Positions 3,001 to 51,000 of a DNA stretch of 64,000 nt are shown one piece after another (positions within the stretch are counted from its first letter, which is position 1; each line of letters begins with the position of its first letter). The stretch lies in the NCBI RefSeq assembly GCF_026571515.1, contig NW_026854747.1, positions 124,001 to 188,000 on the forward strand, given 5' to 3'. A program made the position numbers. Origin of the DNA: Ruditapes philippinarum (taxonomy: Eukaryota).

Positions 3001-6000
3001 GTGCTCATTACCTAAAAATTTGTCATTAAAGTAGCAAAATGTAAACAAAGTTGTATTTTGACTTCCATACTATATACTAATTCACTATAACTGTACTTAC
3101 AGTGATGAAAAAGTTGGTTCTGGTAATTGGCCAATGAATAACTTTTTGGATACTATAAAGTACAGCAAAATTAAAAAGCTTTGGAGAAATAAAAATAAAA
3201 GCATTTTTGAGGCATAATGGGTCTTTAAAGAAACAATTTAATTTGAAGTTTTCTTCTCTAAAATATTTATTCTATAAAATAAAGATGGAGCTCAATTCAC
3301 AACGGTGAACTAACCTATTAAATATATCCACTTCCTTTTTACGTCTGAAATATTCACTCTGGGTCTTGCATTCGTTCCAACATTTCTGGATAGTACAGTT
3401 TACAAGTTCCTGCCCATAATGAGTTATGTCCCCTTCTTGATATAGATTTAGCTCCCTTATCTGAAGTATATGTCAAGGTCAATTAAATGAAATATGACTA
3501 ATAAATAAGGTATTGTAAGTAAATCCAAGCAACATATCACATATTATTTTCTAAAATAATAATTCTTCATGCTTGTAAATTTGAAACAAGAACAGGTCAA
3601 ATCTTTCTTATACTCAGGCTTGAAATTATACTTCCATTTTACATTTGAAATTAAATGAGATAAAAAAAGGTTACCCAACACAGTAAAATACTTGGATGAA
3701 GTTTACCTCGATCAAGTCTGACTTTGATGGTAGCAACTTCACAAGATACAGATGTTACAAGGAACTCTGCAAATATGGGTTTTTCCCATCTAATCCAAAG
3801 GTACAAACAAACTTTTACAGTTATGATGTAACAGTGAGCTACCGTTCACAAAAGAATGGTCAACATGTTGTGCTTATTGTAGATATTTTTACCAAATTAT
3901 TACTGTAAAATGTTGTTTGTACCTCAGTACTTAAGATGGGTAGGACAATTACAGAGTTTCTGGAATATCTCTGTTATAAACAACAATCAGTATGACATTA
4001 ATACTTCTACCTTTACAGATGATACCGCCAGGGTGTACGCTACATCTGTAAAACACTGTTCAACTACCATCATGCCCTGCGGTCCACCAAATCCTCTGAA
4101 CGCTGTGTTGGATGGTATATTTGTCTTACATACATGGCCTGTTGTACGAACATTAGGAATCTTGTATGCATTGTCTATATGAAACATTGCACGCTGTGTT
4201 ACCTATAACAGACATAATATAATTATGTTCAAAATTAAATGGATTATAAACTCATAATAATTTAAAAAGTTTGAGTTATGTATTTGAATAATTCCTAGAG
4301 GAATCGGAGAACAAGACTGGGACAGAAATACAATAAAATCCTTCCATTATCAAAGATAGAGATAACTACAACATTACTGGTGGTGGTACCAGTACAAGTT
4401 GCCTTCACTTTCGCAAGAAACTGAAACTTCTGTACATACCAGAGTAGAGGTACAGTCCAAATGACTATAGAAAAGATTTGATAATCTATGACAACCGAAG
4501 TGACCTGCACCTTCCCGGTTTCAAGCCTGGGTCATCAAATTCACAGTCCATTGCTCTACTTACTGAGCTTACCGGATGGTTTCCACAGAATCACGAACAT
4601 TAGAATTGATATAATGTAGGATACTTACAGCCCATGATAGGTCCAGTGACATACCAGCATTACTATAAAGGTCAACCTCTAATGCTGTTATCTTTCCTCC
4701 ATCCATAAATCCTATCTATAAATAGAGTAGGTTCAAAGATTAATCTATAAATAGAGTAGGTTCAAAGGTTTTTAACAATGCAAGAGCTATTTAATGGCAG
4801 AAAGGGGCGTCCATGGCCGAGTGGTTATTGTCGTTGACTTCAAACCACTTGCCCCTCACTGCTGTGGGTTCCAATCCCGACAGGGACTTTGGATTCTTTC
4901 ATGTGAGGAAGCTATCCAGCTAGCTTACGGAACGTCAGTGGTTCTACTCAGGTGCCCGTTTGTGCCTGATATCATGCACGGAAAGGCACCTAAGGTCTTT
5001 CTCCACCTGTAAAGCTGGAACGTCGCCATATGACCTATACTGTGTCGGTGTGACGTAAAACCCAAACAAACAATAATGGCAGAAGGCATTCAAAAAATAC
5101 TATTATTATGCAATTAAAGTAAAACCTTTCCTTATGCAGATATTTTATTTTGAAAAATACAGTAATAAAGTATTACAATGTAATACATTTATGTATTCTA
5201 AGCTCAGCAATGCATAATTTCTAATGTTTTTTTCTATGTACATGTATGCTACTGCCTTTCTAACATAGTTTTACAAAAAAGTTTACAAACATATCCATGT
5301 TAAATGGGCTCCAGCAATCAATATCTTTGTTAAAGCATATCATTTTATCATTTAAAAATAAGACTTCATTCATTAATAAAATATAAGGGTGTAATAAACA
5401 CTCATAGATTAAGAGAAATGTTACTTTATATTTTGCATAGAAAGGATGTCTAGTCCCTGTCATCAACATATCCTCATCACGATCTAACATCACACGTACT
5501 GGACGTCCTAGTCTAAAAAATATATATTATATACCTATATCATCATAGCAATACTGTGAATTTTGAACAATGAAAAGGACCATGGCTTAGTGGTTAAGGT
5601 CTTGGCCTCTAAATCAAGGGATCAAGAGTATGCACAACTAGGCTTGGTAACAAACAATCCTGTGAAGTTTCACTGAAAAACCCCAGCAGTTTTGGTGATA
5701 AAGTGTGGACAAGCTTATTTTACTTGAAAATTGACCATTAAGGGGCCATTACTGTGCAAAAAAATATCATACAAAAAATCACGATACTATGTACAACTAA
5801 GCATGGTGACAAAAAATCCTGTGAAGTTTTACTGTAATCCCCTCAGCGGTTTTTGAGATGAAGCGCAGTCAAGATTACCAGATGGACAGACAGACAGGAC
5901 TGATGGACAGTGCAATTACTATATGCTACCCTTTGTGGGCATATAGATGAAGAAGTTTAACAAGATTCCTATGTTTGTTTGTTTGTTTGTTTCATTTTAC

Positions 6001-48000: not shown

Positions 48001-51000
48001 ACACCTGAGGTCTCCCTCCACCAGTCAAGCTGTAAAGTCACTATATGACCTGTACATTGTAACTTGAAACACTAAAGAACACTTGCTAAGAAAAACCAAA
48101 TTACTAGATAGTCTCATCACATTAAAAGATTTTCTGCTTTTTGCAAGATTTGAAAAGAGTTCAATAAATCTTAACATTTCCAATTATATTCAGATGTAAA
48201 AAAATCCCTTAACAAAGCAGCAGTAAAAACTGCTTACATTCTGTGCAAGACTGGTCCTATATACACGGTTGTTTGCATATATTACCCAGGCCACTAGGCG
48301 GGGGTTATATTTCACACAGTCTTTACATAAGTAAGGTCATACATTGTATAACCTGTCAAACAAATTTATGATACAGTATACTTCTTTTACTTGAGAAAAA
48401 ATTGAAATTACTTAATAAATTGAGAGTATCCATGTATCATTATATAGCTTATATAAATGTCAGGTTTATCCAACGAAAAGTGACGTTACAAACATGCAGT
48501 ATTATATTATTTACAGGAGTTATTTTTCATCTGACACATTGGCAGCCATGATGATAGCTGTGATGACATGTGGTACAATGTTTCCTATGGCTGTCTATAC
48601 TGGCAAAATACTTCTACAGGTAATATTTACTTCAAAATACTTCTACAGGTAATATTTACTTCGAAATACTTCTACAGGTAATATTTACTTCGAAATACTT
48701 CTACAGGTAATATTTACTTTATAATACTTCTACAGGTAATATTAACTTCGAAATACTTCAACAGGTAATATTTACTTTGAATTACTTCTACAGGTAATAT
48801 CTACTTCGAAATACTTCTACAGGTAAAATTTACTTCAAAATACTTCTACAGGTAATATTTACTTCAAAATACTTCTACAGGTAACATTTACTTCAAAATA
48901 CTTCTACAGGTAATATTTACTTCAAAATACTTCTACAGGTAATATTTACTTCAAAATACTTCTACAGGTAATATTTACTTCAAAATACTTCTACAGGTAA
49001 TATTTACTTCAAAATACTTCTACAGGTAACATTTACTTCAAAATACTTCTACAGGTAATATTTACTTCAAAATACTTCTACAGGTAATATTTTGCTTTGA
49101 TACTTCAAGACTTGACAGTTGGGAATTACTTATAGGGACTACATCGTATCTGTCAATATCATAGAATTTCTTAACGGTATATTCTTCTTGATGAATTTGT
49201 TATATTTTTGGTTTTAACTTTTAAGTAAACTGTTTTTTGTTGAATTTGTATGGATTATATTCAGTGGGACAAATACGCTAAATGTAAAAGATAAAGGCCC
49301 ATAATGCCCCACAATTTTTTTTTTTATTTTTCAAAGCTTTTTATTTTTGATGTCTGATTTTATTTTCCATGACCCTTGGTTTTCTTCCGTTGCTTTTTGT
49401 AAATAAGTACAGTTATAGTGATTCAGTATTTTGTATGGAAGTCAAAACACTACGTTGTTTACATATTGCTACTTCTGTGACCAATAATTTCACATTCAGC
49501 ACTACTTTCTTCAGGTGATATCCATCTAACATGCTCTTAAACCATTACCTAAATGTTATGACACATATTTTCTCTTTTTACAGAAGGAAATATTTATTTA
49601 TTTCTGGAGCATAGTGTGCCTTAAAGGTAGAACGCGACACTTTGCGAACTTTCAAGTAGCGTCTTGAAAATTGGCATGCAGAAAGTTGACCATATATCTG
49701 ATTAGATTCCGTTGATTTTTTTCCGATAGTTTTACCCAATTTATGTACATACGATGTCAAAGTGGACCATCAAAGCCGGTTTTTAAACATGACATCATTG
49801 CGTATCCTTGGCAACTGTTAGGGTATCACAACGCCATAGGCAGAAAAAAATATCTTAAATTCTACAGCATTCGACGGAAATTATTTTTACCTTTAAGCTG
49901 ATATAAAATTTATCGTTTTACGCGGAAAATTGTTTGAAAAATGGAAAGAAAACTGTCAATTTTGTTTAAAATTAGACGTTCAGTTTAGCCGCTTTTTTCG
50001 GCTTTTAAGCGGCTTTATAAAAAAATTCCTGAAATAAATTTTTGATTTTTTTCTTTAAACGTCCTTTAAAATGTATACTCAGTCTTAATGACTAAAAATA
50101 ATAGGGGGTTACCGACATAGTGACTGAGGCATAGTGTGCCTTTAAAGGTACTTGCAAATGATTTGTTATATTAATATTTCAGACAACTCCAGCCCATATG
50201 TTAGGACAGTTAGACAAAGTTCTGAGAGAAGCCTCTACACTAGATGGTGTTTTAGAATTCAGAGAAGAACATTTCTGGACTCTCTCATTTGGATCCCTGG
50301 TAAATTGATAGTTTTATTTTCAAATGAATTTGGAACACAAAGATTCTTTATGTCAAATATTTATATGTCCCTTTTTATCTGCAAGTGGGATATTTTGCCC
50401 TTAATTCAAGGTTTTCAGAGATGAGTAACTCATTGGAATAAAGTAGGTTATAATTTCTTGAATTATGCCCCTTACATGCACTCCAGTTAAAAAGAATATC
50501 ACTTAGATGTTATTTGTTTCATATTTATATATTGATTCTTTTAAAAAAAAGACATCAGTTGACCAATTAGTAATTATAGCATAGATGTAAAGGCAAGATA
50601 ATTGATATATGTGTAATGCAGAGTTTTACATTAATTAAAGGAAGTTAATCTATCAGTTCTTGACGGTTTATAAAGCTGTACAGTCAGTGATACTATGTTA
50701 TAATTTGTTAAATTAATATAGTATATTTATTCAAGCTCAAATGCAAATAAAAAATGATCTAGCAAGTTATAAATATCAATAATACTTGAGTCTGTTTTCT
50801 GGAGGTTAACACATTACCAGATCTGGTGTTACATGATAAAATATATTTCCATGTCCTAAGTAGGGCTTGGTTTTGTAGAGGCAGACCTCTTAACCATCAA
50901 GCTATCTCTGCCCTAGGTTGGATGACAGATTAACATAAATGGCTGATTCTACATAATCTGCTTTGAAGAAATAAAACTTTGAAGCACCTTGTTTTAATTA

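What the first reader, a model, noticed from the sequence alone, without database searches (positions are those of the whole stretch)
4713..49093. Recurrent tandem duplication of exon-intron junctions into adjacent introns
Seen: about 9 junctions across the 39 exons have local copies of exon edge + splice site + intron edge repeated into the intron. Acceptors: XDH exons 14, 17, 19, 22. Donors: XDH exons 8, 16 and ZnT6 exons 8, 9, 11. The units are unrelated in sequence, run from ~29 to ~118 bp, occur in 2-17 copies and range from near-identical to heavily decayed. Inference: a recurring process seeds minisatellites at splice junctions (for example R-loop or repair slippage at exon edges), or selection allows growth only into the intron. 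The copies create decoy splice sites and raw material for intron gain by tandem duplication.
Basis: partly seen in the sequence, partly recalled or inferred. Interest (0 to 1): 0.72.

Follow-up and report, generated by a model that had tools for sequence, protein, structure and literature searches.

The report
Splice-junction minisatellites ("mirages") in clam genes
Several exon-intron boundaries of two neighbouring clam genes have been copied in tandem into the adjacent intron, a kind of repeat already described in lancelets and humans, and this window does not show that a special junction-targeted process makes them.

Summary
I mapped 26 XDH exons (minus strand) and 13 ZnT6 exons (plus strand), which gives 75 junctions. 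Seven of the nine claimed junctions carry local tandem copies of exon edge, splice signal and intron edge. These are the XDH exon 14, 17, 19 and 22 acceptors, the XDH exon 16 donor, and the ZnT6 exon 9 and 11 donors. Units are 29-118 nt, in 2-17 copies, at about 65-100% identity. The units are unrelated to each other and have no copies elsewhere in the window. The XDH exon 8 donor is a plausible decayed case (P about 0.008). The ZnT6 exon 8 donor is not confirmed.

The kind is already known. Amphioxus "mirages" (Adh3, TnC, globins, PGBD5) and human minisatellites whose first unit spans an exon-intron boundary (F7 IVS7, IFI6, CBS) are the same thing.

Evidence for an excess at junctions is fragile. 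A random-placement model expects 2.5 junction-spanning arrays of 19, against 7 observed (P = 0.007). With exon bases masked this falls to 5 of 17 (P = 0.055) or 4 of 14 (P = 0.12). A near-miss comparison gives P = 0.27. Decoy GT/AG is not preferentially lost.

Best reading: ordinary tandem duplication followed by a selection filter. This is a new member of a known kind, of modest interest.

The parts
579..33376 (-). XDH (xanthine dehydrogenase/oxidase) gene, exons 1-26; the gene continues past the window start.
   Evidence: tblastn mapping of the Mercenaria XDH protein P0001 and junction solving with GT/AG.
33825..51702 (+). ZnT6 (SLC30A6-like zinc transporter) gene, 13 coding exons, head to head with XDH.
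   Evidence: Transcript-derived protein P0121 (462 aa, 98% identity to the last exon) maps with no length offset (delta 0) at all 12 junctions. Exon lengths sum to 1389 nt.
4714..4770 (-). XDH exon 22 acceptor duplication: 29-nt unit x 2, made of polypyrimidine tract, AG and 2 exon bases. The decoy AG lies 29 nt upstream of the real one (exon starts at 4715).
   Evidence: the repeat finder gives 28 nt at 96% identity with spacing 29. Also seen in the offset scans and in the sequence.
7710..8185 (-). XDH exon 19 acceptor array: 7 decayed copies (1 real, 6 decoys). The unit is about 62 nt on average (spacings 51-102 nt) and carries about 52 nt of exon start plus the acceptor. The exon starts at 7761.
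   Evidence: tblastn found a pseudo-copy of the exon start at 8001-7954. Fuzzy motif search, alignment and the repeat finder with 6 copies at 61-84% identity agree.
9180..9415 (-). XDH exon 17 acceptor duplication: 118-nt unit x 2 (75 nt of intron plus 43 nt of exon). The exon starts at 9222. The decoy AG has changed to AA.
   Evidence: TRF reports 9188-9424, period 118, 2.0 copies, 80% matches.
10133..10218 (-). XDH exon 16 donor duplication: 49-nt unit x 2. The exon ends at 10188. Both copies keep CACA|GTAAGT, and the decoy donor is at 10139.
   Evidence: the repeat finder gives 37 nt at 95% identity with spacing 49.
12532..12745 (-). XDH exon 14 acceptor array: 44-nt unit x 5 (about 20 nt of intron plus 24 nt of exon). 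The exon starts at 12555. Three of the 4 decoys keep ACAG.
   Evidence: TRF reports 12533-12734, period 44, 4.9 copies.
15945..16270 (-). XDH exon 8 donor (16270) with a 32-nt x 4.4 array at 15951-16091 that resembles the donor junction. This is a possible decayed, non-contiguous case.
   Evidence: TRF. The local alignment score is 15, reached by 0.8% of 3878 random intronic 40-mers.
46462..46785 (+). ZnT6 exon 9 donor copies. The real donor is at 46485. Decoys start at 46683 (GT changed to TT) and 46749 (AG|GTAGT kept).
   Evidence: the repeat finder gives 3 copies of 37 nt at 84% and 68% identity, with spacings 221 and 66.
48605..49097 (+). ZnT6 exon 11 donor minisatellite: 29-nt unit (15 exon nt plus 14 intron nt) x 17. 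All 17 copies keep CAG|GTAA. The exon ends at 48619.
   Evidence: TRF reports 48604-49092, period 29, 16.9 copies, 94% matches. Units are listed. P0121 joins exon 11 to exon 12 at the first donor.

Best explanation
These are 'mirage' minisatellites.

- Origin. Local tandem duplications arise throughout the AT-rich introns of this bivalve, by replication slippage or unequal exchange (inferred).
- Tolerance. When the founding unit happens to straddle an exon-intron boundary, the copy that stays contiguous with the exon body keeps an intact splice site, so the gene still splices correctly. The extra copies sit in the intron as decoy splice sites. The array then expands, contracts and decays like any other minisatellite.
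- Selection filter. Out-of-frame duplications wholly inside exons are removed by selection. What survives is intronic arrays, junction-spanning arrays that extend only into the intron, and in-frame coding repeats.
- Apparent excess. It is mostly explained by two things. Pairs with one copy frozen by purifying selection stay recognisable longer. The window was also picked because of this pattern.
- Shown here: the anatomy, the independence and local origin of the units, and use of the first donor in ZnT6.
- Inferred: the duplication mechanism, the silence of the XDH decoys, and the persistence bias.
For: - Seven arrays are verified at the stated junctions.
- The units are strictly local. One 15-nt hit lies more than 1 kb away; the other seven units have none. 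The units share only 7-9-nt words with each other.
- Their ages range from about 65% to 100% identity.
- The junction lies at scattered positions within the unit: 2 of 29, 24 of 44, 43 of 118, 31 of 49, 15 of 29 and about 52 of 62 nt. Random placement predicts this scatter.
- Twelve other local arrays lie wholly in introns of the same genes. Four of them are near-misses, ending within one period of an exon.
- The only array inside an exon is in frame, with periods 27 and 21 nt, in the last ZnT6 exon.
- With exon bases masked, the excess falls to 5 of 17 against 2.2 expected (P = 0.055), or 4 of 14 against 2.0 expected (P = 0.12).
- Spanning versus near-miss gives 7 versus 4 (P = 0.27), or 7 versus 2 if the two marginal arrays are dropped (P = 0.09).
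- The transcript-derived protein P0121 crosses ZnT6 exons 9-10 and 11-12 at the exon-contiguous donors.
- Published precedents show the same anatomy with normal splicing: PMC3087553 (section 16 read), PMC3902484 (passage read) and PMC1557585 (abstract and passages read). The last shows 5'-to-3' scanning selecting the most upstream of several identical donors.
Against: - Under the unit-placement null, junction-spanning arrays are nominally over-represented: 7 of 19 against 2.5 expected (P = 0.007).
- Other versions of the same null give 7 of 13 'local only' arrays against 1.8 expected (P = 0.0004), 7 of 22 with the TE-internal repeats added (P = 0.018), and P = 0.0013 if the exon 8 array is counted as an eighth case.
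- Five of the 7 arrays are still detected from intronic bases alone, so detection bias does not explain everything.
- There is no RNA evidence for XDH, so silence of its decoys is assumed.
- Slippage or unequal exchange is inferred, not shown.
Confidence: 0.7

Rival explanations
1. A junction-targeted mutational process seeds tandem duplications preferentially at exon edges. Examples would be breaks or template switching linked to transcription, R-loops or co-transcriptional splicing. On this reading mirages are a mechanistically specific product, not a filtered random sample.
For: There is a nominal 2.3-5-fold excess under the placement null (P = 0.0001-0.018 depending on which arrays are included). 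The arrays occur in both genes, at both donors and acceptors, and at several ages. The amphioxus literature calls the mechanism unclear and the phenomenon possibly general (PMC3087553, section 16 read).
Against: The excess is not significant when detection is restricted to intronic bases (P = 0.055 and 0.12) or when compared with near-misses (P = 0.09-0.27). The junction position inside the units is scattered, and unit lengths and sequences are unrelated. The sample is small (7 events) and comes from a window chosen for the pattern. At base level, junctions are not richer in local copies than intronic positions: 6 of 75 (8%) against 13-17% of 1686 control positions.
Confidence: 0.15
2. The decoy arrays are kept because they are useful. 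For example, tandem U1-binding sites or reiterated acceptors might strengthen exon definition, suppress premature polyadenylation in AT-rich introns, or provide regulated unproductive splicing.
For: All 16 decoy donors of the ZnT6 exon 11 array keep CAG|GTAA. Overall 18 of 19 decoy donors keep GT and 8 of 12 decoy acceptors keep AG. So the splice dinucleotides are not lost faster than their neighbours.
Against: The intact decoys belong to the young arrays (94-100% identity), where everything is intact. In the old arrays retention (8 of 12 acceptors) is about what 70-80% per-base identity predicts. The units share no motif beyond the local splice signal. Using ZnT6 exon 11 decoy 2 would shift the frame, and later decoys would include a stop codon at 48650-48652. 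No expression data are available.
Confidence: 0.07
3. The arrays are assembly artefacts: false tandem duplications produced when a heterozygous bivalve genome was assembled.
For: The two youngest two-copy cases are nearly identical: exon 22 at 28 nt and 96%, exon 16 at 37 nt and 95%. One apparent 1-nt indel in XDH exon 10 shows that the sequence may contain small errors.
Against: Five arrays have diverged copies (61-84% identity) with indels, which mis-assembly does not create. The 17-copy array carries a structured pattern of variants between its units.
Confidence: 0.05

Closest known systems
[quoted passage not shown]
   Same: The tandem unit consists of intron end plus exon start, or exon end plus intron start. 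Both 5' and 3' boundaries are affected. Published units are 10-160 bp, with 81-100% identity in BflGb6. Many but not all copies keep AG/GT. Splicing is reported to stay normal. These repeats have also been proposed as raw material for intron gain.
   Different: The host here is a bivalve mollusc, not a cephalochordate. Three literature searches found no report in molluscs. Seven arrays occur in two adjacent genes, and some are much more decayed (61-70% identity). Copy-number polymorphism and RNA evidence, which exist for amphioxus, could not be examined here.
Human minisatellites whose first unit spans an exon-intron boundary: F7 IVS7 (37 bp, 5-9 copies), IFI6 (6-16), CBS IVS13, LMNB2, PDGF (PMC1557585, abstract and passages read)
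   Same: The authentic donor is followed by identical pseudo-donors in the intron. This matches the ZnT6 exon 11 array (29 nt x 17) and the XDH exon 16 duplication. Only the most upstream donor is normally used. That agrees with P0121 joining ZnT6 exon 11 at the first donor.
   Different: The human cases are donor-side arrays that have been studied experimentally. Four of the seven arrays here are acceptor-side, and nothing here has been tested by minigene or RNA-seq.
Intron gain by tandem duplication of an AGGT-containing segment (Rogers model; Drosophila PMC2891723 and potato PMC4974935, seen in a search listing only; Zhuo et al. 2007, seen only as a cited title in PMC3488318; De Grassi and Ciccarelli, PMC2812944, passages read)
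   Same: A tandem duplication reiterates splice signals and can in principle create a new intron or an alternative splice form.
   Different: No new intron has been made here. The introns involved are the ordinary XDH and ZnT6 introns, and donor-side against acceptor-side similarity within each intron is at background level (best score 13, the 99th percentile of the null).

Membership tests
Mirage / boundary-spanning minisatellite | Two or more head-to-tail copies of a unit abutting an exon | tested here: met
   Seven arrays of 2-17 copies.
Mirage / boundary-spanning minisatellite | The unit contains the exon edge, the splice signal and the intron edge, so the splice site is reiterated in the intron | tested here: met
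   The exon part is 15-52 nt in six arrays. At XDH exon 22 only 2 exon bases are included, which is marginal.
Mirage / boundary-spanning minisatellite | The exon-contiguous site is the one used and the decoys stay silent | tested here: inconclusive
   For ZnT6, the transcript-derived protein P0121 crosses exons 9-10 and 11-12 at the first donors. For XDH the junctions rest only on homology to the Mercenaria protein, and no RNA data were available.
Mirage / boundary-spanning minisatellite | Copy-number instability or polymorphism between haplotypes | not testable with these tools
   There is a single assembled sequence, and no eukaryotic genome or read collection was on hand.
Intron born by tandem duplication (Rogers model) | The end of the upstream exon plus the intron start resembles the intron end plus the start of the downstream exon | tested here: not met
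   Across 37 introns the best score was 13, equal to the 99th percentile of 732 mismatched pairs.
Transposon-borne satellite array | Copies of the unit occur elsewhere, outside the local array | tested here: not met
   The junction units have no hit more than 1 kb away, apart from one 15-nt match. By contrast the intronic arrays of 156 nt and 146/303 nt share sequence with each other.

The most novel reading that the evidence does not exclude
In this bivalve, and perhaps in other highly polymorphic marine invertebrates such as amphioxus, tandem duplications are truly seeded or preferentially retained at splice junctions, at several times the neutral expectation. Mirages would then be a systematic, junction-linked process. 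They would continually create decoy splice sites and feed intron gain and alternative splicing.
Probability: 0.15. Interest if true: 0.65.

Novelty: new member of a known kind. Interest (0 to 1): 0.33.

Why it matters
Boundary-spanning minisatellites are natural experiments in splice-site choice. One example here is 17 identical donors in a row, of which the first appears to be used. They are also a proposed route to new introns and splice variants. Finding seven in two adjacent clam genes extends the phenomenon from cephalochordates and a few human genes to molluscs. It also suggests such repeats may be common in repeat-rich, highly heterozygous invertebrate genomes. Practically, they can mislead gene predictors and spliced aligners. 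The window alone does not show a junction-specific mutational mechanism, so the wider significance depends on a genome-wide test.

Tried and rejected
- ZnT6 exon 8 donor. The only match is about 19 nt long and 2 kb away, with score 17, which is within the shuffle range. I rejected it.
- Base-level enrichment. Six of 75 junctions (8%) have a spanning local copy, against 13-17% of 1686 intronic control positions. This shows no enrichment, but array expansion inflates the control. I therefore relied on event-level tests.
- Faster loss of GT/AG in decoys. Not seen: 18 of 19 decoy donors and 8 of 12 decoy acceptors retain the dinucleotide.
- Intron-birth signature. Not found in any of 37 introns.
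- Transposon origin of the junction units. Rejected.
- Other features. Rfam gave 0 matches and the tRNA scan 0 genes. Pfam on six ORFs or exon pieces gave nothing above its cut-offs.
- Literature. The Zhuo et al. 2007 paper is not held, so it is cited from a reference list only. Supplementary files of the papers were not opened. Additional files 4-7 of PMC3087553 (mirage alignments) might bear on unit structure.
- Comparison with related molluscs or raw reads. I used none of them.
- A same-species XDH transcript was not found among the hits.
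Full report
**Source and gene model**

The window has no N and is 32.6% G+C. It is molluscan, not human. Database searches were made exon by exon.
- XDH exon 19 (74 aa) found 402 proteins at E <= 0.001 among 428 candidates. The best was Mercenaria mercenaria xanthine dehydrogenase/oxidase-like, P0001, at 85% identity.
- The last ZnT6 exon (133 aa) found 82 proteins. The best was an unnamed transcript-derived protein, P0121, of 462 aa at 98% identity. 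The next best hits were at 71%.

I did not build or search any joined (spliced) sequence.

I mapped P0001 and P0121 back onto the window with tblastn and solved each junction for GT/AG and length consistency.
- XDH lies on the minus strand with 26 exons in the window.
- ZnT6 lies on the plus strand with 13 exons. They sum to 1389 nt, or 462 codons plus stop, the length of P0121.
- That gives 39 exons, 37 complete introns and 75 junctions.

**The observation**

Four independent procedures were used.
- TRF.
- Local alignment of a 50-nt probe centred on each junction against its intron.
- Two fixed-offset scans of the whole window, requiring 40-nt windows with at least 30 matches or 30-nt windows with at least 24.
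- The repeat finder.

Seven junctions carry tandem copies that include the splice signal.

| Junction | Unit and copies | Notes |
|---|---|---|
| XDH E22 acceptor (4715) | 29 nt x 2 | 28 nt at 96% identity; only 2 exon bases in the unit |
| XDH E19 acceptor (7761) | about 62 nt x 7 | about 52 nt of exon start; 61-84% identity |
| XDH E17 acceptor (9222) | 118 nt x 2 | 75 nt intron + 43 nt exon |
| XDH E16 donor (10188) | 49 nt x 2 | both copies CACA\|GTAAGT |
| XDH E14 acceptor (12555) | 44 nt x 5 | |
| ZnT6 E9 donor (46485) | 3 copies | 84% and 68% identity |
| ZnT6 E11 donor (48619) | 29 nt x 17 | 94% matches |

In block shuffles, 0 of 435 probes reached a score of 22, whereas six of these junctions scored 26-42. 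The seventh, E22, was missed by that probe design because its copy lies inside the exclusion zone; the scans and the repeat finder found it.

The units have no other copies in the window and share only 7-9-nt words with one another.

Two claimed cases are weaker.
- XDH E8 donor. It resembles the 32-nt array 180-320 nt downstream with score 15. Only 0.8% of 3878 random intronic 40-mers reach that score. The array is not contiguous with the junction, so this is plausible only.
- ZnT6 E8 donor. Its only match is about 19 nt long, 2 kb away, with score 17. That is within the shuffle range, so it is not confirmed.

**Is it more than expected?**

*Base level.* Six of 75 junctions (8%) have a spanning local copy at a score of 26 or more. 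That compares with 13.3% of 1686 intronic control positions at the same score, and 17.2% at a score of 20 or more. This control is inflated by array expansion, however.

*Event level.* I listed 19 local arrays in the introns of the two genes; 7 span a junction and 12 are wholly intronic. For each I computed the chance that a unit of its period, placed at random in its own intron with all arrays collapsed to one unit, would straddle a junction. The results:
- All 19 arrays: expected 2.5, observed 7, P = 0.007.
- Longer periods for two arrays: expected 3.1, P = 0.016.
- Adding three transposon-internal repeats: P = 0.018.
- Counting E22 as not spanning: P = 0.028.
- Dropping probable transposon-borne satellites and marginal arrays: 7 of 13, P = 0.0004.

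So there is a nominal 2-5-fold excess.

*Three things weaken it.*
- One copy of every junction pair is frozen by purifying selection, so such pairs stay detectable for longer. With all exon bases masked, 5 of the 7 arrays remain at the 30/24 threshold (5 of 17, expected 2.2, P = 0.055). At the 40/30 threshold 4 of the 7 remain (4 of 14, expected 2.0, P = 0.12).
- Under random placement, spanning arrays should be about as frequent as arrays that end within one period of a junction without touching it. There are 7 of the former and 4 of the latter (P = 0.27), or 2 if the two marginal arrays are dropped (P = 0.09).
- The window was singled out because of this pattern, so the P values are post hoc.

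In addition, the junction sits anywhere within the units, from 2 of 29 nt to about 52 of 62 nt. This fits random placement and not breakpoints keyed to the splice site.

**Decoy sites**

- All 16 decoy donors of the ZnT6 E11 array keep CAG|GTAA.
- The E16 decoy keeps GTAAGT.
- One of the 2 ZnT6 E9 decoys keeps GT.
- Overall, 18 of 19 decoy donors keep GT.
- Decoy acceptors keep AG in 1 of 1 (E22), 3 of 4 (E14), 0 of 1 (E17) and 4 of 6 (E19) copies, or 8 of 12 overall.

For arrays at 70-80% identity this is about the background rate, so GT/AG is not lost faster than neighbouring bases.

Use of the second ZnT6 E11 donor would add 29 nt and shift the frame. Later donors would include the in-frame stop at 48650-48652. 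P0121 joins exons 9-10 and 11-12 at the exon-contiguous donors. No RNA evidence exists here for XDH.

**What it is**

The anatomy matches a described class.
- Ebner et al. [quoted passage not shown] They cite earlier cases in Adh3 and other loci. These affect both 5' and 3' boundaries, and many copies keep AG/GT. Splicing is normal, the mechanism is unclear, and the authors give an explicit model of intron gain.
- PMC3902484 (passage read) adds amphioxus PGBD5 and TnC.
- Borensztajn et al. (PMC1557585, abstract and passages read) list human genes with a minisatellite whose first monomer spans an exon-intron boundary: F7 IVS7, IFI6, CBS, LMNB2 and PDGF. For F7 they show that a 5'-to-3' scanning process selects the most upstream of identical donors.
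- De Grassi and Ciccarelli (PMC2812944, passages read) report tandem repeats at exon-intron boundaries forming novel introns in human segmental duplications.

Three searches found no report of such structures in molluscs. One search found no genome-wide enrichment study. The library does not hold most subscription journals.

**Mechanism**

The best-supported account is ordinary local tandem duplication followed by a selection filter. A duplication that straddles a junction leaves an intact exon-contiguous splice site, so it is tolerated. Out-of-frame duplications inside exons are not tolerated. The only exonic array in these genes is an in-frame 27/21-nt His-rich repeat in the last ZnT6 exon.

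The arrays then behave as minisatellites. Slower decay of pairs anchored in a conserved exon adds to their visibility. The duplication mechanism itself (slippage or unequal exchange) is inferred.

A junction-targeted process remains possible (about 0.15), given the nominal excess. Selection for the decoys and assembly artefact are less likely.

No intron in the window shows the signature of birth by such a duplication.

**Verdict**

This is a new member of a known kind, in a bivalve and at notable local density. Comparison with related molluscs, raw reads and RNA data could not be done with the collections available and remains open.

Noticed in passing
window 14777-14767 (minus strand), XDH exon 10 (14905-14737): There is one extra base relative to the reading frame. 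The frame shifts between ...LSRI and QELKQAIGKYP, which are contiguous in the Mercenaria protein, and exon 10 is 169 nt long. All other exons are open with canonical GT/AG. This could be an assembly indel, an allele or early decay of the gene.
   Followed up: partly
window 33326-33888: XDH (minus strand) and ZnT6 (plus strand) are arranged head to head. Their start codons are at 33376 and 33825, 448 bp apart, which suggests a shared bidirectional promoter. The ZnT6 ATG directly follows an AG, so an upstream 5'-UTR exon is possible.
   Followed up: no
window 11396-12139 and 42933-44543 (also 42278-42597 and 44924-45583): These are long intronic satellite-like arrays with periods of 156 and 146/303 nt that share sequence with each other, so they are probably transposon-borne and not locally born. 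A (CGGT)n microsatellite at 42879-42922 abuts one of them.
   Followed up: partly
window 17850-18110, 19876-20115, 46167-46312, 47208-47449, 63689-63893: An interspersed repeat occurs in five copies. It has an internal 99-nt duplication and open frames on both strands. Two copies end only 40-50 nt upstream of acceptors (XDH exon 5 and ZnT6 exon 10). One frame gave no Pfam match.
   Followed up: partly
window 51607-51691, last ZnT6 exon: An in-frame coding tandem repeat with periods of 27 and 21 nt encodes a His/Gly-rich C-terminal tail (GHGHSHE...). It is the only tandem array inside an exon of either gene.
   Followed up: no
window 24629-25966 and 30420-31259: Two large purely intronic minisatellites lie in XDH introns 3 and 1. 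One has a 29-nt unit in about 34 copies across two blocks, with a 144-145-nt higher-order period. The other has a 70-nt unit in about 12 copies.
   Followed up: no
XDH exon 25/26 junction (1908 / 674): The Mercenaria protein model P0001 has about 5 extra residues here relative to the window, so the junction solved with an offset of -5. The window reads ...FLNQ|AGAL.... This is probably an annotation difference in the reference model.
   Followed up: no
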